A stretch of 64,000 bases of DNA, from NCBI GenBank assembly GCA_963766935.1, contig CAVYBY010000007.1:3911-67910 (forward strand), read 5' to 3'. This DNA comes from an uncultured Actinomycetes bacterium. Its GTDB lineage: Bacteria > Actinomycetota > UBA4738 > HRBIN12. Below the pieces are notes generated by a model. That model made no database searches, was not told the origin of the DNA, and saw only the letters and a program-made list of their open reading frames with translations. Shown in pieces: positions 43,313 to 61,656 of the stretch. Both the position numbers and the translations under genes were made by a program. Numbering within the stretch: the stretch's first letter is position 1; each line of letters opens with the position of its first letter.

Positions 43313-44160
43313 GCAGCCTGCTCCACGTCGTCTCGGCACAGGTGGCGCCCGTGCCCGGCGACCCGGTCGCGACCTTCGACGTCTTCGAGCAAACCTGCCG
43401 CACGATCCGGACCTCGATTCCCGAAGCGCAGCTGTATCTGTTTCCCGAGCTGTTCCTGACCGGCGACCATCCGTTTCATCGCTCGACCCCTCCCGAGAAC
43501 CTGGCGGAGCCCGTCCCGGGACCGCTGACCGAGCGGGTGGCGGCCGTCGCGCGGCGAACGAAGCGGTGGATCCTCGCCGGATCGATCTACGAGCGCGCCT
43601 CGGCAGGCCGCATCTACAACACGGCGATCGCGTTGTCGCCGGCCGGCGAGCTGGTCGCCGCCTACCGCAAGCTCTTCCCCTGGATGCCGTTCGAGCACAC
43701 GACGCCGGGAGATGCCCCACCGCCGGTCTTCGAGATTCCGCGTGTCGGCAAGGTCGGCGTGATGATCTGCTACGACGGCTGGTTCCCGGAGGTGCCCAGG
43801 GCGCTGGCGCTCCGCGGAGCCGAGGTGATCCTTCATCCGACGCTGACCTCCACGCCCGACCGGGAGGAGGAGCTCGTGCTCGCGCGCGCGAACGCGATCG
43901 CGAACCAGTGCTACGTCCTCAACGTGAACTCGTCGCTGACGGTCGGTGGCGGGCAGTCGATCGGCGTCGACCCTGAGGGCCGCGTTCTGTTCGAGGGCGG
44001 CTCGGGACAAGAGCTCTTCTCCGAAGTCCTCGACCTCGCCCGCGTCCGCACCGTCCGGGAGCACGGCACGCGCGGTCTCACGAGGCCGCTTCGGCAGTTC
44101 GAGCAGGACGCTCCTGCCGCGGTCTTCGAGGCCTACCGGGGACGCGGCCGGCGCAGGTAG
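43309..44160 (+). CDS. Carbon-nitrogen hydrolase (nitrilase superfamily)
   Basis: Catalytic triad FPE, YRK, ICYD. The GTG start overlaps the kamA stop (GTGA). Confidence 0.9.
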   Translation: MSSLLHVVSAQVAPVPGDPVATFDVFEQTCRTIRTSIPEAQLYLFPELFLTGDHPFHRSTPPENLAEPVPGPLTERVAAVARRTKRWILAGSIYERASAGRIYNTAIALSPAGELVAAYRKLFPWMPFEHTTPGDAPPPVFEIPRVGKVGVMICYDGWFPEVPRALALRGAEVILHPTLTSTPDREEELVLARANAIANQCYVLNVNSSLTVGGGQSIGVDPEGRVLFEGGSGQELFSEVLDLARVRTVREHGTRGLTRPLRQFEQDAPAAVFEAYRGRGRRR

Positions 44161-50632: not shown

Positions 50633-50674
50633 GGAGCGCTCATCCTACCCGTCGCGCTCGCTACACTCGCTGCC

Positions 50675-51094
50675 ATGGCGCCCCAAAAGCCGAGCCAAAC
50701 GCCGAGCCAGAAACCGAAGACGAACGCGACCGAATCGTCCAAGCGGGCGACGGCGCGTCGAAAACTGGCGCTGACGGCGCCGGGTGTCCGGCTCACGGGG
50801 GACCGCCTGATCGTCGAGCTTCCGGGCAACGGAGAGCGCAAGACGGCCGGCGGGCTGCTGATCCCGGCGACCGCGATGCCGGCGCCGAAACGCCTCGTCT
50901 GGGCCGACGTCCGGTTGGTTGGCCCCGACGTCCGCGCCGCCTCGACCGGCGACCGCGTCCTGTTCCTGCCCTCGTCCGGTCTCGAGGTTGAGCTCGACGG
51001 CGAGGATCTCATCCTGCTGCGCGAGCGCGACGTGCAGGCCGTCACACCGGCGGTCGAGGGCAGGAACGACCGGGTTCCCGGCCAGTACCTGTAG
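50675..51094 (+). CDS. Divergent GroES-family co-chaperonin
   Basis: GDRLIV, ERKTAGGLLIPATA (mobile loop), VGP, GDRVLF, LILLRERDVQAV, plus a basic N-terminal extension. Confidence 0.8.
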   Translation: MAPQKPSQTPSQKPKTNATESSKRATARRKLALTAPGVRLTGDRLIVELPGNGERKTAGGLLIPATAMPAPKRLVWADVRLVGPDVRAASTGDRVLFLPSSGLEVELDGEDLILLRERDVQAVTPAVEGRNDRVPGQYL

Positions 51095-51103
51095 CCGGGC
51101 TGC

Positions 51104-51508
51104 TCAGCCGCTCAGCAGGCTGAGGCGAACGTGGCGCCGGTTGTTGTCCCGGTTGGGGTCGACGATCACGACGCGCTGCCAGGTTCCGAGCTGGAGACGG
51201 CCGCCCAGCACCGGGATCACCAGGCTCGGGCCGACGAACGCGGGCAGCAGGTGGTCGCCTCCGTGACCGGTGGAGCCGTGCCGGTGGACGTAGCGGTCCT
51301 CGCGCGGCAACAGGCGACCGAGGACCTCGGCCAGATCCTCCTCGCTTCCCGATCCGGTCTCGATCAGCGCCACGCCCGCGGTCGCATGAGGCACGAACAC
51401 GTCGAGGAGCCCATCGCCCCCGGCCTCCGCACAGAACGCCGCGACCCGGTCGGTCACGTCGAAGACCAGCGCCCCGCTCGTGTCCAGCTCGAACACGGAC
51501 GAGCGCAT
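51104..51508 (-). CDS. yjbQ: YjbQ / UPF0047 family protein (secondary thiamine-phosphate synthase)
   Basis: FVPHATAG, YVHRH, GDHLL, LQLGTWQ...D. Confidence 0.88.
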   Translation of the reverse strand: MRSSVFELDTSGALVFDVTDRVAAFCAEAGGDGLLDVFVPHATAGVALIETGSGSEEDLAEVLGRLLPREDRYVHRHGSTGHGGDHLLPAFVGPSLVIPVLGGRLQLGTWQRVVIVDPNRDNNRRHVRLSLLSG

Positions 51509-52101
51509 CAGTCCGGATCGAGGGCCCCAGCGGCCCCGCCGGCAACGGGCGGCCTCAACACGCCGCGGACGAGCATCAGCGCGCCCACAAAGCCCACGAC
51601 CCCTCCCACGAAACAGAGCCAAACACCGAGCTCAGCATGACTCGATGCGATCCGGTCCACATCCCTCTTGGTGAATCCGAGGGCTCCGAGATCCCGCGCC
51701 AGCCGCTGGGCGAGAACGAACGCCGTCTCGTCGACCTGCCGGAGGTCGGTAAGCGCCCTCGCCGCACCCATGGCTCCCCCGAGCGCGATCAGCACCACCA
51801 CCGGCATGCGCCACCGGGGGACCAGGTAGGCGATCGTGGCTCCGATCAACACGAGGATCCCGGCAACGAGCGTGACCTTGCCGTCGGTGATGGCGATACC
51901 CGTCGCGGAGATGTGCGTCGGGATGTTCGCTCCGTGCAAGACCGAGACGTCGATGCCCAGCGTCGCGGCGAGCGCCCGCAGGCTGATCGAGGCCGAGATC
52001 CACGTCAGAAAGGATCCGAGTGCCAGCATTGCCCCTCCGAGGATCGCGACCAGCTCGGGGGCGGACGGACCTCGCCGAACGTCGCTTCGCGCGTGCGCCA
52101 T
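51508..52101 (-). CDS. Membrane protein (about 4 TM)
   Basis: GGAMLALGSFLTW, DGKVTLVAG, ELGVWLCFVGGVVGFVGA. TGATG overlap with yjbQ. Confidence 0.7.
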   Translation of the reverse strand: MAHARSDVRRGPSAPELVAILGGAMLALGSFLTWISASISLRALAATLGIDVSVLHGANIPTHISATGIAITDGKVTLVAGILVLIGATIAYLVPRWRMPVVVLIALGGAMGAARALTDLRQVDETAFVLAQRLARDLGALGFTKRDVDRIASSHAELGVWLCFVGGVVGFVGALMLVRGVLRPPVAGGAAGALDPD

Positions 52102-52128: not shown

Positions 52129-53121
52129 TCAAGCGGCGGGGCCGCCCGGAAGCTCGGTGTGTTCGGCCTCGTGGAACTCGGCGAACGACATCGGCCAGAC
52201 GTAGCCCGGCCAGCGATAGTCGAGCCTGCCCTCGGCCAGGCGGAACACCGCCGTGTACAGAGTGCCAAACCCGCCGGCGTACTCGCGGCTGAGGAGCGGC
52301 TCCCGCAGGAACGCGTCCACGAAGCCCTCGGCGGTCATGGCGGGATCACCGAGCAGATCGAGCACGCATCGTTCCCGTTCGACGGTCCGGGTCGCGACCG
52401 CCTGCTCGAGCCATTCGACCTCGCCTTGGTGGTTGGTGGCCGCGGGGATGGGCCGGAACACCGGCGGGCGATCCGGGGACAAGTACGCCGTGAAGAACGC
52501 GCCCCGGCGATCGGCGACGGTCAGGTTGTGGCTGAGCGCGTACGGAAGCCGTCCCAGCACGCCCTGCGCCTCGGCCGCGGTCTCGCACACCTCCAACAGG
52601 TAGCGCACGACGATGGGGATGCCGAACCCTTCGCCGAGCACCCGGCGGCCGCCGAAGGTCAGCGAGACGGCGAGGCCGGCCTCGTTCATGCCGTCGAGCA
52701 GGCCCCACAGGCAGTCGCCCGTCCCGATGACCCGGCGGCTCACCATCCGCGTCGACCAGATCGTGCCCTCGAACCGCGACGGCGAGTAGTCGTAGTTGCG
52801 AACGAGCAGCGGGCCGGGTTCGCCGGTCCACACGCCCTGCGAGCACGCCGCCAGATACGGGGGCGGGCTGTAGAGCGCGAGCATCCTCGCGGCCAGATCG
52901 CCGCCGCCGGCAAGCTCCACCAGCCGCTCGTAGACGGGCACGAGCTCCGGCATGTGATCCTGCAGCATCTGCAGGCTCGTGACGTAACCGGGCCGGGCCC
53001 CGTCGCCCTCCTGGAGGAACCACTCCCGATAGGCGGGCCAGCGCCGCTCGAACTCCGCCTGCCACTTGGGCCCGAGCTCGAGCTCTTCGATGGCGCGGAA
53101 CGTGACCAGAACGGGCGGCAT
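52129..53121 (-). CDS. C45 family autoproteolytic acyltransferase/hydrolase (Ntn fold)
   Basis: HMPELVP, YLAA|CSQ (N-terminal nucleophile Cys), VRNYDY, LDGMNEAGL, ATNH. The start overlaps the ATP-grasp stop (TGATG). Confidence 0.82.
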   Translation of the reverse strand: MPPVLVTFRAIEELELGPKWQAEFERRWPAYREWFLQEGDGARPGYVTSLQMLQDHMPELVPVYERLVELAGGGDLAARMLALYSPPPYLAACSQGVWTGEPGPLLVRNYDYSPSRFEGTIWSTRMVSRRVIGTGDCLWGLLDGMNEAGLAVSLTFGGRRVLGEGFGIPIVVRYLLEVCETAAEAQGVLGRLPYALSHNLTVADRRGAFFTAYLSPDRPPVFRPIPAATNHQGEVEWLEQAVATRTVERERCVLDLLGDPAMTAEGFVDAFLREPLLSREYAGGFGTLYTAVFRLAEGRLDYRWPGYVWPMSFAEFHEAEHTELPGGPAA

Positions 53122-54779
53122 CAGAGCATCTTGAAGCCGAACGGCTCGGGCGCGACGGGCGGCGGCTGCTCGGTTGGGGCAACGCCGCGGAAGGCGCCCT
53201 TGATCCCCGTGATCCACGTTCGAGCCCGGTCCGACAGATCGTGCTCGTCGTTCATGAACCGGCCGCGCGTGACGAGGATCCCGAGGTCGGCGCCGGGGTA
53301 GCGGTACTGGCCCGCTCCGGCGATCCGCAGATAGAACGCCTCGCGCTCGTCGGAGACGGTGTGCCAGTCGGTGTCGGAGCGCGCATAGGCGATCCCGCCG
53401 GCGTCGTCCGCGCGCCAGATCCCGGATGCCGGCGCCTCCGTGATCAGCTCCACCGCATCGTCGGTCTGCTTCAGGATGAACTGCGTCCACTCGTCCAGAT
53501 CGGTCACCTGCGCCCATCGCTCGTTCAGCGCGTCGACGTCGATCTCGTAGTCGACGTCCATGAACTCGATCAGATGGAACAGGAACAGCGGCATGTCCCC
53601 GTAGGCCACGGCGGTGACGTTCGTGATGCTCGAGGCCCCGGTGACCCGCGGGTTGAGCTCGCCGAGGAAGAGCTCGCCGGTCGTCGCGTCGAGCAGGAAG
53701 TCCAGCTCGAAGTACCCACGGTAGCCCTCCTGCCGCAGACGCTCTCCCATCGCCTGCGTCCACCTCCGCGCGAGGGTTCGTTGCTCGTGGGTCAGAACGT
53801 TCGGGGATACGTCGTTGCCGCACCACCCGCCGTCGTAGGGCGTGAGCTCCGGGAATCCCGTCAGCTCCGCCATGAGCGGACCCACGAGCGTTCCGTGGCG
53901 CGTGATCACGCCTTCGATCGCGAGCTCGCGCGGCTCGATCCGCTTCATGACCTTGAGGTCGTGGCCGGCCATCTTCCGCTCACTGCGCGACCAGCCCGCC
54001 AGATCCGGCACGAAGAACGTCGTCTGGCCGGAGTCTCCGTACGGCGTCTGGACGACCAGGTCGTCGCCGAGCCCGGCGCTCGACGCGAGCGCGAGGAGTT
54101 CCGCGTACGAGGACGCGCGCCCCATCGTGTTGGGCACGCTCGGCACGCCGGCCTCGTTGCCGAGGCGCGTCGTCTCGATCTTCGAGTCGAGCCGGGTCCG
54201 CAGGGACGCCGGAGGGAACGAGACCTCGAGTCCCAGCGCATCGGCGAGCTGCTCGGTCTCTTCGTCGAACATCAGGAACGCGACCCGCCCGCCGGGACCA
54301 CGCCCGTGGACGAGGTCGACGACCTCTTTGTGGCCGAGCAGGTAGTTGCAGATCTCCTCGATCGAGGAGAACGCGCGCGGCGGGCGCTCCTTCGGAACGA
54401 ACACGTTCGGATGCCGGCCGTCGAACGAGTCGTAGTAGTTCACGAAGCGAAAGTTGCGAACCCAGCGGTCGATCCCGAGGAGGTTGAACGCGGTGGCGCT
54501 CACGAAGTAGACGGGAACCTCGTTCGAACGAAAGAAGCGGCGGATGGCCGGGATCCCGTCGAGCGGCGCCGTTCTCACCAGGTTCGCGGCCCCCACCTCC
54601 TCGCCGTCGCCGCGACCACCGTCCGCGCGCACATCGGAGCGCTCGAGGCCGTCCGAGCCGAACGGGTCGACCGGCAGTGGCGGCGCGGCGCGCAAGCGTC
54701 GCATGAGGAGCGCGAGCCCCGCAAGCAGCACGCCGAGCGGCACGAGAACGGCGATCAGGTGAAGGACAGACCGCACCAT
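53121..54779 (-). CDS. ATP-grasp amidoligase ('biotin carboxylase-like' orphan family), possibly with an N-terminal TM helix
   Basis: LDSKIETTRL...GVPSVP, VVQTPYGDSGQTTFF, KVMKRI, WCGND, YRGYFELDFL, ELNPRVTG. No biotin-carrier or carboxyltransferase gene nearby. Confidence 0.78.
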   Translation of the reverse strand: MVRSVLHLIAVLVPLGVLLAGLALLMRRLRAAPPLPVDPFGSDGLERSDVRADGGRGDGEEVGAANLVRTAPLDGIPAIRRFFRSNEVPVYFVSATAFNLLGIDRWVRNFRFVNYYDSFDGRHPNVFVPKERPPRAFSSIEEICNYLLGHKEVVDLVHGRGPGGRVAFLMFDEETEQLADALGLEVSFPPASLRTRLDSKIETTRLGNEAGVPSVPNTMGRASSYAELLALASSAGLGDDLVVQTPYGDSGQTTFFVPDLAGWSRSERKMAGHDLKVMKRIEPRELAIEGVITRHGTLVGPLMAELTGFPELTPYDGGWCGNDVSPNVLTHEQRTLARRWTQAMGERLRQEGYRGYFELDFLLDATTGELFLGELNPRVTGASSITNVTAVAYGDMPLFLFHLIEFMDVDYEIDVDALNERWAQVTDLDEWTQFILKQTDDAVELITEAPASGIWRADDAGGIAYARSDTDWHTVSDEREAFYLRIAGAGQYRYPGADLGILVTRGRFMNDEHDLSDRARTWITGIKGAFRGVAPTEQPPPVAPEPFGFKML

Positions 54780-56071
54780 GTGCGCACGAACGTCCCGAGA
54801 ACCTGCGCCGTCTGAACCACGCTCGGCAGGAACGTCCGCTCCTCCCCTCCGTGGGCGCCCTCCGCGAGTGGTCCGAGGCATACGGCCGGAACGCCTCCAT
54901 ACAGACCGAAGAGCCTGGCGTCCGTCGTGCCGGTCGTCGCCAGGAGCGAGGGCGGACCACCGCTCTGGCGGGCGAACGCGTCGGCGAGCGTGGTCACGAG
55001 CGGATGCGCCGGATCGATCGCATATCCCTCGCAGGCGAAGCCCCGGTACTCGACCTCCGGCGGACCGGCCGACGGTGTCACGAGCGCGGCCATCGCCGCC
55101 TCGATCCGGTCCTGAAGATCACGCACGCGCATCCCCGGGTACAGGGCGATCCGGAAGTCGACCAGGCACTCGCCCGGAACGGTGGACGCCCAGTCCCCCG
55201 CGTGGATGGCGCCGACGTTCAGCGCGATCGGATGCTCGTATTGGTCGTAGGGCGGGGGCGGGTTCGCGTTGAGCTCCTGCTCCAGAAGATGAAGCGCGCG
55301 GATCACCCCGTAGCTCCGCTCGATCGGGTTCTGCCCGGCATCGGCCTCCGCCCCGTGACCGGGCACGCCCCGGATGCGAGCGCGGAACCACAGAACCCCG
55401 ACCTGTGACGTCGTGATCCCGGCTCCGAACGGCTCGGCGATCACCGCCGCATCGGCCGTGTACCCCGCAAGCAGCGTCTGCAACGTGCCGTTGCCGGTGC
55501 ATTCCTCCTCGACGACCGATTCAACGTGGACCGGTCCGTGCGGTCGCAGACCGAGCGCGCGCAGGCCCTTGATCGCCCCGAGGATCGCCACGAGGCCGCC
55601 CTTCATGTCCGCGGAACCGCGCCCGACGAGCCATCCGTCCTCGACGCGAGGGACGAAGGGATCGCCGGTCCAGGCGAACCGTGGCTCCGGGCTGACGACG
55701 TCGATGTGGCCGTTGAGGATCAGGGACCGTCCGGCGGCACCGTCGAGCGGCTCCCAGGTCGCCACGACGTTCGACTTGCCGTCCACGTCCCAGTCGAAGG
55801 GCGAGTGGCCGGGATGGGAACGCAATGCGGCGGCGTCCATCGCGACGTCGACCGGGACCAGACCGATCTCTCGCAGGGCGTCGCGGACGACGATCTGGCC
55901 CGCCTCCTCGTTTCCGAGGGTCGTGTCGACGGAGACGAGCCGGGCCAGCAGATCGGTCATCCAATCGGTCTCGGACGCCACCGCCTGCGCGATGGCCTCG
56001 TCACTTGCAACTCCCGGCGCAACGCTTGGTGCGCCGCTTGCGCGTTCCGCGGCGTTCGGCAAGGGTTGCAT
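54755..56071 (-). CDS. M20 family ArgE/DapE-like deacylase
   Basis: LNGHIDVV, GRGSADMKGG, VEEE, GTTDARL, AHGGEE. Confidence 0.9.
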   Translation of the reverse strand: MQPLPNAAERASGAPSVAPGVASDEAIAQAVASETDWMTDLLARLVSVDTTLGNEEAGQIVVRDALREIGLVPVDVAMDAAALRSHPGHSPFDWDVDGKSNVVATWEPLDGAAGRSLILNGHIDVVSPEPRFAWTGDPFVPRVEDGWLVGRGSADMKGGLVAILGAIKGLRALGLRPHGPVHVESVVEEECTGNGTLQTLLAGYTADAAVIAEPFGAGITTSQVGVLWFRARIRGVPGHGAEADAGQNPIERSYGVIRALHLLEQELNANPPPPYDQYEHPIALNVGAIHAGDWASTVPGECLVDFRIALYPGMRVRDLQDRIEAAMAALVTPSAGPPEVEYRGFACEGYAIDPAHPLVTTLADAFARQSGGPPSLLATTGTTDARLFGLYGGVPAVCLGPLAEGAHGGEERTFLPSVVQTAQVLGTFVRTWCGLSFT

Positions 56072-56181
56072 CGCAGCCCAGCGTATCGGCCGGCGGAGAT
56101 GGCCGGCCGAGTCCGGCGGGCCTCAAGCAAGAGGCGCCACCTGCCGATGGAGCAGGTATGCGTCCGAGGGGTGGTCTAGGC

Positions 56182-57456
56182 ATGCGTGTCCGCGCACCAG
56201 GTTTGGTTGCCGCCACCACAGTCCTCCTGCTCCTCACGTCGTTCGGAGGTCGCGCGGCAGCTTCCGGCGGAACGGGCCGATCGGCCGGCGACGCCGGCTC
56301 GGGCCCTCCACCGCTGCCGCACGCCGGGAGCGTGGCGGTGACGGCGCAGTCGGCGATCACCTGGTCCGACCTCGACGCCGGCGACGCGTGGGCTCGCCCG
56401 GCCATCAATGCGGTCGCCGGAGCGGAGAAATGGATGCGCGACACCGCCCCCGATGCGCAGGGTGTCGCAAGGTTTCGCCCCGACTCGCTCGAACGACGAT
56501 CGTTGTTCGCCCGCGCGCTCGTCCGTGCGTTCGTGCCACCGTCCGAGCGAACCGTGGACCCGTCCATCCGCTTTCCGGACTTCAAGCGATCCCTGCCGTT
56601 GTCGCAGTGGGCGAACATCGCCGTCGGACTCGGATGGATGGGACGAACGGCTTCCGGCGGATTCAACCCGAACGGACCGGTCACGACCATCGTGGTCCAC
56701 CGGGCGCTGATCGACGTGCTCGGGCTGCGAGACGTCGCCAAGCAGTTGAATGCCTTGTCGACGACCAACGGCTATGTGTTCGCGAAGCCGGCCGGGTTCG
56801 GACCGCTGTTGCTCGGGATGCGCCTTGGTCTTCGGTTCGACAACGACGACGAGAGCCAGGACGTCGGGCCGAGGACGCCGCTCGTTCGCAAGCAGGTTGC
56901 GTACTCGCTGTGGCGGGCCGCCACGCTCGACGATGGGACGATCTCCTGGATCCGCGGCCAGTACGAACACGCCACGCTGCCGCGAATGGGACCGACGCGG
57001 CGCGCCATCGTCGAGTGGGGCCTTCGCTACGTCGGCTACCCGTACGTCTGGGGGGGCGAGTGGGGCTTCGACACGACTCCGCCCGGCGGGTTCGGCTCGC
57101 AGCCGGTGCCCGGCTTCGACTGCTCAGGTCTGACCTGGTGGACGCTCAAGGCCGATGACGGCGGGGCGTGGGACGTCGCGCCGCCGAGGCCCTACGCGGG
57201 CTGGAACATCGCCGAGCGAAGCTCGGCCCAGATGGCGACCAAGTCCAACTTCCGCCGGTTCGACGAGCTGCGCATCGGGGACATGGCGTTCTACGACGGC
57301 GACGGCGATGGCACGGTCGACCACGTGGATGTCTACGTGGGAAGCGGGTGGGCCCTGGACTCCTCCGGTGGTGCCGGCGGGGTCACGCTCATGTGGATCG
57401 GCGACGGCTGGTACCGGGACCACTTCGTCTCGGGCCGGCATCTCAGCGCGCACTAG
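56182..57456 (+). CDS. Secreted SLH-domain NlpC/P60 (C40) peptidoglycan hydrolase
   Basis: Signal peptide; SLH-like repeats (WSDL..DAWARPAI...FRPD, FPDF...WANIAVGLGWM...GFNPNGPVT); YVGYPYVWGG, FDCSGL, DHVDVY. Confidence 0.8.
   Translation: MRVRAPGLVAATTVLLLLTSFGGRAAASGGTGRSAGDAGSGPPPLPHAGSVAVTAQSAITWSDLDAGDAWARPAINAVAGAEKWMRDTAPDAQGVARFRPDSLERRSLFARALVRAFVPPSERTVDPSIRFPDFKRSLPLSQWANIAVGLGWMGRTASGGFNPNGPVTTIVVHRALIDVLGLRDVAKQLNALSTTNGYVFAKPAGFGPLLLGMRLGLRFDNDDESQDVGPRTPLVRKQVAYSLWRAATLDDGTISWIRGQYEHATLPRMGPTRRAIVEWGLRYVGYPYVWGGEWGFDTTPPGGFGSQPVPGFDCSGLTWWTLKADDGGAWDVAPPRPYAGWNIAERSSAQMATKSNFRRFDELRIGDMAFYDGDGDGTVDHVDVYVGSGWALDSSGGAGGVTLMWIGDGWYRDHFVSGRHLSAH

Positions 57457-58089: not shown

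Positions 58090-61656
<3,567 letters not shown>

What the first reader, a model, noticed from the sequence alone, without database searches (positions are those of the whole stretch)
52129..56071. M20 deacylase + orphan ATP-grasp ligase + C45 Ntn-hydrolase operon: putative amide/peptide synthesis-and-turnover system
Seen: three overlapping or coupled minus-strand genes, followed by a membrane protein and YjbQ. The ATP-grasp protein has no biotin-carboxylase partners nearby, and the C45 protein has an intact autoproteolytic Cys. Established: ATP-grasp amidoligases paired with peptidases typically make and recycle small peptides or acylated amino acids (e.g. compatible solutes or storage compounds). 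Inference: this is an uncharacterised ligase/hydrolase cycle whose product is unknown.
Basis: partly seen in the sequence, partly recalled or inferred. Interest (0 to 1): 0.62.

Follow-up and report, generated by a model that had tools for sequence, protein, structure and literature searches.

The report
Orphan ATP-grasp ligase with C45 amidase
The three genes are real, but the conserved unit is an uncharacterised ATP-using ligase (mislabelled "biotin carboxylase") and its self-cleaving cysteine amidase partner, which in other bacteria sit inside GABA and polyamine breakdown operons; what bond they make and break is still unknown.

Summary
On the minus strand, M20 deacylase (54755-56071), ATP-grasp (53121-54779) and C45 Ntn-hydrolase (52129-53121) are translationally coupled. 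A membrane protein and YjbQ follow.

The ATP-grasp belongs to NCBIfam NF005096 ("biotin carboxylase") and has a biotin-carboxylase-like fold. It lacks the carboxylation residues K238 and E296, and no BCCP or carboxyltransferase lies nearby, so it is not a true biotin carboxylase.

The invariant core is ATP-grasp plus C45:
- They are adjacent in 78 of 79 close loci and 48 of 57 distant metagenome loci.
- Their phyletic profiles match in 301 Actinomycetota genomes (p = 3e-22).
- M20 is optional (52 of 76). Elsewhere an amidase or a CN-hydrolase takes its place.
- In Mycobacterium a beta-lactamase-fold hydrolase replaces C45.

In other lineages the pair lies in GABA-centred catabolic operons. These hold an Rv2531c-type glutamate decarboxylase, GabT, aminobutyraldehyde and succinate-semialdehyde dehydrogenases, amine oxidase and agmatinase.

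The ligase also carries an almost invariant C-terminal tail, F-K-x-x-COOH (153 of 159 sequences), on a hypervariable linker.

My best reading is an ATP-dependent "mask and unmask" amide ligase/amidase module acting on GABA or a GABA-yielding amine, not a biosynthetic peptide system. No published characterisation was found.

The parts
54755..56071 (-). M20 (ArgE/DapE-family) metallo-deacylase, 438 aa. It is an optional accessory of the cassette.
   Evidence: PF01546 and PF07687. NF005306 at 435 bits against a cut-off of 376. Best PDB relative is 3pfo, a putative acetylornithine deacetylase, at 9e-76. Motifs HIDVV, SADMKG, VEEEC, AEPF and GAHGGEE are present. It lies directly upstream of the ATP-grasp in 52 of 76 related loci.
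53121..54779 (-). ATP-grasp enzyme, 552 aa, of NCBIfam NF005096/PRK06524 (database name 'biotin carboxylase'). It is the core ligase-type component.
   Evidence: NF005096 at 740 bits against a cut-off of 684; no Pfam hit. AF2 model pLDDT 86.9. The top 50 Foldseek hits are all biotin carboxylase, TM 0.5-0.65 at about 14% identity. The Mg/ATP motif E374-L-N376-P-R378 is kept, while the BC residues K238 and E296 are replaced by T297 and A382.
54702..54767 (-). N-terminal transmembrane helix of the ATP-grasp (VLHLIAVLVPLGVLLAGLALLM). RRLR follows, then a variable Pro/Gly/Asp-rich linker (54570-54701). The catalytic domain is predicted to be cytoplasmic.
   Evidence: Sequence. A helix plus variable linker is present in most close homologues. 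An in-frame hydrophobic 19-mer occurs in 41 of 92 loci and in none of the distant clades.
53124..53135 (-). C-terminal tail F-K-M-L-COOH of the ATP-grasp (Lys550 at position -3).
   Evidence: 153 of 159 distinct family C-termini end in [FY]-K-x-x. K at -3 has zero entropy and F at -4 occurs in 150 of 153, whereas the preceding linker has about 3 bits or more per position. The tail is disordered in the AF2 model, pLDDT below 50. It is lost in the Mycobacterium clade that lacks C45.
52129..53121 (-). C45-family (IAT/AAT-like) Ntn hydrolase or acyltransferase proenzyme, 330 aa. It is the obligate partner of the ATP-grasp.
   Evidence: PF03417 at 7.6e-26 and NF040521 at 154 bits against a cut-off of 85. 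AF2 pLDDT 88. Best fold match is isopenicillin-N acyltransferase 2x1c, TM 0.68, followed by bile-salt hydrolases, NAAA and acid ceramidase. Its start overlaps the ATP-grasp stop as TGATG.
52843..52845 (-). Codon of Cys93, the predicted autoproteolytic and catalytic N-terminal nucleophile (A-A|C-S-Q).
   Evidence: C93, S94 and Q95 are invariant in 11 orthologues at 52-69% identity. The residue sits at the start of the first core beta-strand in the model. Codon checked.
51508..52101 (-). Membrane protein of 197 aa with several hydrophobic segments. Lineage-specific passenger of the operon.
   Evidence: Only a sub-threshold Pfam hit, PF09534. Detectable in 18 of 80 related loci at 27-38% identity. 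Absent from distant contexts.
51104..51508 (-). YjbQ/UPF0047 protein, 134 aa. Its start overlaps the stop of the membrane-protein gene (TGATG).
   Evidence: PF01894 and TIGR00149 above their cut-offs. Present in 55 of 80 close loci, but not next to the pair in distant lineages.
56072..56184 (.). Divergent intergenic region between M20 and the NlpC/P60 gene. This is the probable promoter region of the operon.
   Evidence: Gene coordinates. No sigma-70 consensus match was found, so the promoter is inferred from geometry only.

Best explanation
The locus encodes an obligate two-enzyme module. One part is a membrane-tethered, biotin-carboxylase-fold ATP-grasp enzyme that uses ATP to form an amide bond through an acyl-phosphate. 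The other is a self-processing C45 cysteine Ntn-amidase that later cleaves or transfers that bond.

In this lineage an optional M20 deacylase accompanies the pair. It probably supplies or finishes the substrate.

The module most likely works as a "mask, process, unmask" step on GABA or on a GABA-yielding amine such as putrescine, agmatine or 4-guanidinobutyrate. This resembles the gamma-glutamylation (Puu/Pau) route, but the enzyme families are unrelated. It is not a biosynthetic peptide or solute system.

The two proteins probably act as a complex. The ligase's invariant C-terminal F-K-x-x-COOH tail would serve either as the docking element for C45 or as the point of attachment.

Shown: gene identities, folds, loss of the carboxylase residues, strict co-occurrence and adjacency, interchangeable hydrolases, GABA-centred neighbourhoods in other lineages, and the tail motif.

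Inferred: the chemistry (amide ligation and hydrolysis), the substrate class, and physical association.
For: 1. The ATP-grasp keeps the Mg/ATP core: K200, E358, and E374/N376/R378. Its fold is BC-like over the full length.
2. C45 has an intact Cys nucleophile and an IAT-like fold.
3. Adjacency holds in 78 of 79 close loci and 48 of 57 loci of a subfamily whose members are 38-47% identical to the subfamily representative used as query (itself about 41% identical to the window protein). It also holds where the genes are convergent and so not co-transcribed (L084, L092).
4. The phyletic profile is exact. 16 of 301 Actinomycetota genomes have the ATP-grasp. 14 have this C45 subfamily, all among those 16. 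The two without it are Mycobacterium, where a PF00144 hydrolase follows the ligase. Fisher p = 2.8e-22.
5. The upstream slot is filled by three unrelated amidohydrolase superfamilies: M20, amidase signature and CN-hydrolase.
6. Neighbourhoods elsewhere are GABA-centred:
   - Cu amine oxidase, agmatinase-type ureohydrolase, aminobutyraldehyde dehydrogenase (722 bits), 5-guanidino-2-oxopentanoate decarboxylase (783 bits) and SSADH-like ALDHs.
   - GabT at 805 bits.
   - A long-form OKR decarboxylase directly upstream in 34 of 46 loci. It is a full-length homologue of Rv2531c (PDB 9N0N, 820 bits), which has been shown to be a glutamate decarboxylase (PMC13506015).
7. The tail motif is present in 153 of 159 sequences and is lost where C45 is lost.
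Against: - No enzyme of this family has been assayed. Substrate, product and even the reaction class are inferred.
- In this window and its close relatives the cassette is not next to any GABA or amine-catabolic gene. The genome's GabT-like gene is on another contig, and it has no long-form decarboxylase.
- In decarboxylase-linked operons the only amine is GABA, which needs no masking. The Puu analogy therefore does not explain every context.
- The canonical second ATP-binding Lys (BC K159) aligns to an invariant Gln, which is unusual for a ligase. That alignment has only 44% hhalign probability.
- One close locus (L013) and 7 distant loci have no C45 within the DNA held.
- Physical association is untested.
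Confidence: 0.45

Rival explanations
1. Self-carrier pathway. The ATP-grasp ligates a carboxylate substrate, for example the gamma-carboxyl of glutamate, to the epsilon-amine of the invariant Lys at -3 of its own flexible C-terminal tail. Neighbouring enzymes act on the tethered substrate. C45, with M20, amidase or CN-hydrolase as alternatives, then releases the product. This would be a cis, reversed-polarity analogue of LysW/LysX/LysK amino-group carrier chemistry.
For: - Lys at -3 is invariant in 153 of 153 motif-bearing tails and sits on a hypervariable, disordered linker.
- Three atypical tails with a C45 partner still keep a Lys near the end (L145, L168, L174).
- More distant subfamilies show G/N-I-K motifs at variable distance from the C-terminus.
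- The fold is that of an enzyme whose natural substrate is a lysine-borne swinging arm.
- M20 enzymes include the LysW-lysine hydrolase LysK (weak hit; established knowledge).
Against: - The fixed distance to the free C-terminus and the conserved Phe and hydrophobic residues look more like a docking motif.
- The Mycobacterium clade and several distant subfamilies lack the Lys tail yet keep the catalytic core, so the basic chemistry cannot require it.
- A stoichiometric enzyme-bound substrate is a poor fit for bulk catabolism.
- There is no mass-spectrometric evidence.
Confidence: 0.17
2. The genes form a biosynthetic ligase/hydrolase cycle that makes and recycles a small peptide, acylated amino acid, compatible solute or storage compound, with M20 and C45 as the turnover enzymes.
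For: - ATP-grasp ligases make such compounds, for example carnosine/homocarnosine synthase CARNS1. M20 carnosinases and the C45 enzyme Tan hydrolyse beta-alanyl and GABA amides (established knowledge).
- In this lineage the cassette stands alone beside housekeeping genes: GroEL/GroES, PrmC-like and MoaA.
- The ligase is membrane-anchored.
Against: - No exporter, regulator or precursor-supply gene is conserved with it.
- M20 is dispensable.
- In every lineage where the neighbourhood is informative it is catabolic.
- A ligase strictly coupled to its own hydrolase would be a futile cycle unless regulated.
Confidence: 0.15
3. A two-subunit amidotransferase or biotin-independent carboxylase of the CPS/PurK type. 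C45 would act as the amide-hydrolysing (ammonia- or amine-delivering) subunit. The BC-fold ATP-grasp would activate bicarbonate or a small acid and couple it to that nitrogen, giving N-carboxylation or amide formation on a nitrogen compound.
For: - BC/CPS-like fold, with weak PF02786 hits on some homologues.
- The E-x-N-x-R motif with the Arg that binds carboxyphosphate in BC is conserved.
- An obligate Cys-hydrolase partner recalls CarA/CarB (established knowledge).
- Amidase-signature and agmatinase/ureohydrolase neighbours recall urea carboxylase with allophanate hydrolase.
Against: - The BC residues that handle bicarbonate, K238 and E296, are replaced by invariant Thr and Ala.
- C45 relatives are acyl-amide hydrolases or transferases, not glutaminases.
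- No second phosphorylation domain is present.
Confidence: 0.1
4. ATP-dependent handling of the GABA lactam (2-pyrrolidone) or a similar omega-lactam or omega-amide. This would be metabolite repair or catabolism analogous to 5-oxoprolinase and caprolactamase, with the hydrolases acting as omega-amidases.
For: - The contexts are GABA-centred.
- The interchangeable partners belong to the same superfamilies as the nylon-oligomer and omega-amide hydrolases: amidase signature like NylA, PF00144 like NylB, and CN-hydrolase like DavA (established knowledge).
Against: Known ATP-dependent lactamases are not ATP-grasp enzymes. This model gives no specific role for the tail and rests on analogy alone.
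Confidence: 0.06
5. The database annotation is right and the protein is a genuine biotin carboxylase subunit.
For: The NCBIfam equivalog model NF005096 is named 'biotin carboxylase' and is passed at 740 bits. Biotin carboxylases are the best structural matches.
Against: - K238 and E296 are replaced.
- Identity to BC is only about 14%, and no Pfam BC domains reach threshold.
- No BCCP or carboxyltransferase gene lies in the window or in about 90 related loci.
- The constant partner is an amidase.
Confidence: 0.03

Closest known systems
NCBIfam NF005096 / CDD PRK06524 ('biotin carboxylase', equivalog model)
   Same: The window protein passes the curated cut-off (740 against 684 bits). It is a bona fide member of this sequence family, which also includes Mycobacterium, Mycolicibacter and Mycolicibacterium proteins.
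   Different: The family name is an untested transfer of annotation. Members lack BC residues K238 and E296 and lack BCCP and CT partners.
Biotin carboxylase AccC (E. coli; PDB 2v58, 3rv4, 3g8c)
   Same: Same three-domain fold over about 470 aligned columns (TM 0.58-0.65). The ATP/Mg residues K116, E276, E288, N290 and R292 are conserved.
   Different: Identity is about 14%. K238 becomes Thr, E296 becomes Ala and K159 becomes Gln. The window protein adds an N-terminal TM helix and a C-terminal F-K-x-x tail, has no biotin carrier, and pairs with an Ntn amidase.
Puu/Pau gamma-glutamylation pathway of putrescine catabolism (PuuA ligase, PuuB oxidase, PuuC ALDH, PuuD hydrolase, PuuE GABA transaminase)
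   Same: The logic fits: an ATP-dependent amide ligase plus a Cys amidase bracketing amine oxidation. The same companion enzymes (amine oxidase, aminobutyraldehyde DH, GabT, SSADH) occur in homologous loci.
   Different: PuuA is glutamine-synthetase-type and PuuD is a class-I amidotransferase-type hydrolase, so neither family is shared. In this window none of the companion genes is adjacent.
Isopenicillin-N acyltransferase (IAT, MEROPS C45; PDB 2x1c/2x1d) and Drosophila Tan
   Same: This is the best fold match for the C45 protein (TM 0.68). The C45 protein likewise has a pro-region followed by a nucleophilic Cys. IAT cleaves a delta-(alpha-aminoadipoyl) amide and Tan cleaves beta-alanyl amides. 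Both are omega-linked amino-acyl amides (established knowledge).
   Different: Identity is only about 15%. There is no beta-lactam or CoA context. The partner is an ATP-grasp, not an NRPS-like synthetase (Ebony).
LysW/LysX/LysK amino-group carrier system
   Same: An ATP-grasp ligase, a flexible C-terminal tail as attachment point, and an M20 hydrolase for release (established knowledge). This matches the gene content M20 plus ATP-grasp plus tail.
   Different: There the carrier is a separate small protein ending in Glu and the ligase is RimK-type. Here the tail is on the ligase itself and offers a Lys. Nothing has been demonstrated.
Glutathionylspermidine synthetase/amidase (GspSA)
   Same: An ATP-grasp amide ligase acting on a polyamine is combined with a Cys amidase that reverses the reaction (established knowledge).
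   Different: GspSA is a single fused protein with a CHAP amidase. There is no sequence relationship beyond the ATP-grasp superfamily.

Membership tests
Biotin carboxylase (AccC, EC 6.3.4.14) | ATP-grasp three-domain BC fold | tested here: met
   The Foldseek top 50 are all BC or BC domains, TM 0.5-0.65 over about 470-490 columns.
Biotin carboxylase (AccC, EC 6.3.4.14) | Mg/ATP ligands K116, E276, E288, N290 and R292 | tested here: met
   They align to K143, E301, E317, N319 and R321 of the 495-aa query (add 57 for the full protein). All are invariant in 34 sequences.
Biotin carboxylase (AccC, EC 6.3.4.14) | Carboxylation residues K238 (bicarbonate/phosphate) and E296 (catalytic base) | tested here: not met
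   K238 aligns to the invariant T240 and E296 to A325. The motif is NPRVTGAS instead of NTRIQVEH. The same replacement is seen in distant subfamilies.
Biotin carboxylase (AccC, EC 6.3.4.14) | R338 (biotin enolate stabilisation) | tested here: inconclusive
   hhalign did not align the C-terminal domain.
Biotin carboxylase (AccC, EC 6.3.4.14) | Works with BCCP and a carboxyltransferase, usually encoded nearby or fused | tested here: not met
   tblastn with E. coli AccB and AccC found nothing at E below 0.01 in the window or about 90 loci. The neighbours are hydrolases.
NCBIfam NF005096 (PRK06524) | Whole-protein score above the curated cut-off | tested here: met
   740.5 bits against 684.
MEROPS C45 / Pfam AAT (PF03417) Ntn proenzymes | Profile match above the curated cut-offs | tested here: met
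   PF03417 at 91.6 bits against 23.2; NF040521 at 153.7 against 85.
MEROPS C45 / Pfam AAT (PF03417) Ntn proenzymes | Nucleophilic Cys after a pro-segment, and an alpha-beta-beta-alpha Ntn fold | tested here: met
   Cys93 is invariant. The model's top match is IAT precursor 2x1c, TM 0.68.
MEROPS C45 / Pfam AAT (PF03417) Ntn proenzymes | Autoproteolytic maturation | not testable with these tools
   Needs expression followed by SDS-PAGE or MS.
M20 ArgE/DapE deacylases | Catalytic and dimerisation domains, and a subfamily score above cut-off | tested here: met
   PF01546, PF07687, and NF005306 at 434.6 bits against 376.
M20 ArgE/DapE deacylases | Di-metal ligands and catalytic Glu | tested here: inconclusive
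   Motifs H122-I-D, D155 (SADMKG), E188-E189, E213 and H407 are present. They were assigned from memory of the family motifs, not by a structural alignment.
Puu/Pau gamma-glutamylation pathway | GS-type ligase PuuA and class-I GATase-type hydrolase PuuD | tested here: not met
   The ligase is an ATP-grasp and the hydrolase is a C45 Ntn enzyme. The analogy is one of logic only.
Puu/Pau gamma-glutamylation pathway | Co-location with amine oxidase or transaminase, aminoaldehyde DH, GabT and SSADH | tested here: inconclusive
   Met in homologous loci of other lineages. Not met in this window or its close relatives.
LysW-type amino-group carrier systems | A separate small carrier protein with a C-terminal acidic residue, and a RimK/LysX-type ligase | tested here: not met
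   No such gene is in the operon. The ligase is BC-like. The only tail is the ligase's own F-K-M-L.

The most novel reading that the evidence does not exclude
The BC-fold ATP-grasp is its own substrate carrier. The invariant Lys three residues from the C-terminus, on a disordered and hypervariable linker, would swing into the active site and be acylated with ATP, for example by glutamate or GABA. Neighbouring enzymes would work on the protein-tethered intermediate, and the C45 Ntn enzyme would release or transfer it. This would be a previously unknown, protein-tethered branch of GABA and amine metabolism: a cis, reversed-polarity counterpart of LysW chemistry and an evolutionary echo of the biotinyl-lysine arm of carboxylases.
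Probability: 0.15. Interest if true: 0.9.

Novelty: new variant of a known kind. Interest (0 to 1): 0.6.

Why it matters
Thousands of database proteins in this family carry the name "biotin carboxylase": more than 7,000 clusters at 90% identity and about 380 at 50% identity. The evidence here says that name is wrong.

The ligase and its C45 partner co-occur in exactly the same genomes. In many bacteria they sit between GABA-forming and GABA-consuming enzymes, including the newly recognised Rv2531c-type glutamate decarboxylase. An ATP-consuming, amide-forming step in or beside the GABA shunt is not part of any textbook pathway.

Working out the reaction would:
- fill a hole in amine and GABA metabolism of soil and marine bacteria and of environmental mycobacteria;
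- correct a large annotation error;
- possibly reveal a new use of a lysine-bearing tail.

For this genome specifically, the finding is one more instance of that family. It is notable for the stand-alone, membrane-anchored, M20-linked form.

Tried and rejected
- Sequence search of the PDB with C45, alone and as a profile, gave no usable hit. A fold search was needed.
- Single-sequence PDB search with the ATP-grasp gave only marginal BC hits. The profile search reached E = 7e-9.
- hhalign against E. coli AccC aligned only the central domain (probability 44%), so R338 could not be mapped.
- The promoter and terminator scan found nothing above the shuffled expectation.
- Literature searches for the family, for the ATP-grasp/C45 pairing and for PRK06524 returned nothing relevant. 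The two Rv2531c papers do not mention an ATP-grasp neighbour.
- An early neighbourhood table used out-of-frame C45 and YjbQ queries. It was redone.
- The idea that YjbQ, the membrane protein, the NlpC/P60 gene or the thioesterase belong to the system was rejected. They are syntenic only within the close clade.
- The idea that loci lacking C45 carry a replacement hydrolase held only for Mycobacterium. In 7 metagenome loci the downstream genes are unrelated.
- A true-BC reading was rejected on residues and partners.
- Trans-docking of the tail into C45 could not be modelled.

Full report
**Anatomy**

The minus strand between 51104 and 56071 carries five co-directional genes.
- The M20 gene is 54755-56071.
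- The ATP-grasp ORF runs from 54881. Gene callers and homologues use the ATG at 54779, giving 552 aa. That start overlaps the M20 stop by 25 nt.
- The C45 gene (52129-53121) starts with an ATG that shares one base with the ATP-grasp stop (TGATG).
- A 197-aa membrane protein (51508-52101) follows after 27 nt.
- A YjbQ gene (51104-51508) again overlaps by TGATG.
- Upstream, an NlpC/P60 gene is divergent. Downstream, a GroES-like gene is convergent.

**Identities**

The M20 protein passes Pfam PF01546 and PF07687 and the NCBIfam subfamily NF005306, ArgE/DapE deacylase. Its closest solved relative is the uncharacterised 3pfo.

The C45 protein passes PF03417 and NF040521. In an alignment of 11 orthologues at 52-69% identity, Cys93-Ser-Gln is invariant after a conserved helical pro-region. 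An AlphaFold model (pLDDT 88) matches isopenicillin-N acyltransferase best (TM 0.68). Bile-salt hydrolases, NAAA and acid ceramidase come next.

The ATP-grasp has no Pfam hit but passes NCBIfam NF005096/PRK06524, whose name is "biotin carboxylase" (740 against 684 bits).

**Is it a biotin carboxylase?**

The fold says "BC-like". The model (pLDDT 86.9) has biotin carboxylases as all of its top 50 Foldseek hits, over nearly the full length, at about 14% identity.

The residues say "not a carboxylase". I aligned the family profile to E. coli AccC, taken from NC_000913.3.
- The ATP/Mg residues K116, E276, E288, N290 and R292 are conserved.
- K238 aligns to an invariant Thr.
- The catalytic base E296 aligns to Ala: NPRVTGAS instead of NTRIQVEH.
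- K159 aligns to an invariant Gln.

The same replacements are seen in subfamilies down to about 30% identity. No BCCP or BC gene lies in the window or in about 90 related loci.

**What is conserved together?**

In 80 loci from species-representative genomes (69-81% identity):
- C45 lies directly downstream on the same strand in 78 of 79 informative loci.
- M20 lies directly upstream in 52 of 76.

On a tree of the ligase, presence of M20 needs at least 11 changes, so M20 is an accessory. YjbQ (55 of 80), NlpC/P60 (55), the thioesterase (54) and the membrane protein (18) reflect local synteny only.

In more distant Actinomycetota the pair persists while everything else changes.
- In two families C45 is convergent with the ligase, so the link does not depend on co-transcription. 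An amidase-signature enzyme sits where M20 sits here.
- In another family a CN-hydrolase occupies that slot.
- In Mycobacterium, Mycolicibacter and Mycolicibacterium (named) C45 is absent. A PF00144 beta-lactamase-fold hydrolase follows the ligase instead.

So the second slot is always an amide hydrolase, and the first slot is an amide hydrolase of three unrelated superfamilies or is empty.

**Phyletic profile**

In one evenly drawn sample of 301 Actinomycetota genomes:
- the ligase family is present in 16;
- this C45 subfamily is present in 14;
- the 14 are exactly the 16 minus the two Mycobacterium genomes, and no genome has this C45 alone (Fisher p = 2.8e-22).

The family is sparse. It occurs in 4 of 151 and 6 of 104 genomes in two other orders. 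It is nevertheless large overall: more than 7,000 clusters at 90% identity and 377 clusters at 50% identity with E of 1e-30 or better.

**What the neighbours say elsewhere**

In one actinobacterial family (five genomes, four genera) the pair lies in a long operon containing:
- a copper amine oxidase;
- an agmatinase-type ureohydrolase;
- aminobutyraldehyde dehydrogenase (NF010000, 722 bits);
- 5-guanidino-2-oxopentanoate decarboxylase (NF005712, 783 bits);
- a solute symporter and a CN-hydrolase;
- two further SSADH-like aldehyde dehydrogenases and an amino-acid permease.

Other lineages show further variants.
- In Thermoleophilia the pair follows an ALDH, two class-III aminotransferases and a Rieske oxygenase.
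- In another lineage it follows a saccharopine-dehydrogenase-like enzyme, GabT (NF004714, 805 bits) and an amidase.

I then took a distant subfamily (representatives 31-50% identical to the window protein) and fetched 80 metagenome loci.
- C45 is directly downstream in 48 of 57.
- A roughly 930-aa OKR-family decarboxylase is directly upstream in 34 of 46.
- A CN-hydrolase is present in 29 of 37.
- A class-III aminotransferase is present in 22 of 37.

That decarboxylase is a full-length homologue of Rv2531c (PDB 9N0N/9N0O, 820 bits). Rv2531c was recently shown to be a glutamate decarboxylase feeding the GABA shunt (PMC13506015).

The common denominator of all informative contexts is GABA: enzymes that make it from glutamate, putrescine, agmatine or arginine, and enzymes that consume it.

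In the window's own genome the cassette is not linked to such genes. A GabT-like gene lies on another contig, and there is no long-form decarboxylase.

First, the N-terminus is a transmembrane helix followed by RRLR and a variable linker. An equivalent in-frame hydrophobic segment exists in 41 of 92 loci, all in the close clade. The positive-inside rule places the catalytic domain in the cytoplasm.

Second, the C-terminus is F-K-M-L. Among 159 distinct family C-termini, 153 end in [FY]-K-x-x-COOH.
- Lys at -3 is invariant.
- Phe at -4 occurs in 150 of 153.
- Positions -2 and -1 are hydrophobic.
- The preceding 10-15 residues are hypervariable, at about 3 bits or more of entropy.

The tail is disordered in the model. 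The Mycobacterium clade that lost C45 also lost the tail. This ties the tail to C45 functionally, though it rests on one evolutionary event.

**Mechanism**

The best-supported reading is an obligate ligase/amidase pair. The ATP-grasp forms an amide through an acyl-phosphate. The C45 cysteine amidase later cleaves or transfers it. The bond is made on GABA or on an amine that is being converted to GABA.

This is the logic of the Puu/Pau gamma-glutamylation pathway, carried out by unrelated enzyme families. The interchangeable upstream hydrolase (M20 here) would deliver or finish the substrate. The tail would hold the two proteins together or carry the substrate. I put this at about 0.45.

Rivals are:
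- the self-carrier model (0.17);
- a CPS/PurK-like amidotransferase or carboxylase (0.10);
- lactam handling (0.06);
- a true biotin carboxylase (0.03).

None can be settled without an assay.

**Earlier notes from this scan**

After reaching the GABA/Puu reading, I consulted the scan's earlier notes. Several agents had met the same pair in other genomes. They linked it to GABA operons and to the long-form decarboxylase, and one proposed the tail lysine as a carrier. I treated these as leads.

The decarboxylase link and the tail were then tested on independently fetched loci and hold. The claimed spread over seven or more phyla was not tested, because metagenome contigs carry no taxonomy here.

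**Novelty**

I found no paper on the family. It is a real, widespread, mis-annotated enzyme pair of unknown chemistry. In kind it resembles known ligase/amidase systems, so I class it as a new variant of a known kind.

The instance in this window is the stand-alone, membrane-anchored, M20-linked form.

**Limits**

- The residue mapping to BC rests on a 44%-probability profile alignment.
- Neighbourhood counts use tblastn with queries from a few loci.
- Physical association, substrate and reaction class are inferences.

Noticed in passing
window 53124-53135 (and the C-termini of L001-L176): The ATP-grasp family has an almost invariant C-terminal [FY]-K-x-x-COOH tail on a hypervariable, disordered linker (153 of 159 sequences). 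It superficially recalls the M-K-M biotinylation motif of BCCP.
   Followed up: yes
window 54702-54767: The ATP-grasp has an N-terminal transmembrane helix, which is unusual for this superfamily. It is present in about half of the close relatives and in none of the distant clades.
   Followed up: partly
L081 4493-8283; L082 9212-10621: In Mycobacterium-group genomes a PF00144 beta-lactamase-fold hydrolase follows the ligase instead of C45. In L081 an enolase-superfamily (MR_MLE) gene comes next.
   Followed up: partly
L096 7900-12259; also G116, G222, G154, G258: Some genomes carry a second C45 paralogue. In L096 the two copies flank the CN-hydrolase and ATP-grasp genes.
   Followed up: no
L086 7917-9390; L096 9882-11329; G464: The ATP-grasp gene is split by frameshifts in several MAGs. 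These are either long-read consensus errors or pseudogenes.
   Followed up: no
L034 (contig JBLMXP010000166.1): A contig binned as Planctomycetaceae carries the cassette at 77% identity. Its flanking genes (YjbQ, PrmC-like, MoaA) match those of the Actinomycetota loci, and its ligase nests inside that clade on the tree. It is probably mis-binned.
   Followed up: no
window 50672-51094 (+) and 58090-59712 (-): A GroES-like gene with an N-terminal extension of about 40 residues rich in Pro/Gln/Ser/Lys lies 7 kb from GroEL, on the opposite strand. The two are not in the usual groES-groEL operon.
   Followed up: no
window 43360-44100 (+): A CN-hydrolase 42% identical to the one that precedes the ATP-grasp in L083 lies about 8 kb from the cassette. 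It is not adjacent.
   Followed up: no
family-wide (A2 column Q187; A3 column Q181): The position of the canonical ATP-binding Lys (BC K159), in the strand before the Gly-rich loop, holds an invariant Gln (motif V-Q-x-P-Y-G-D-S-G) across all subfamilies sampled.
   Followed up: partly
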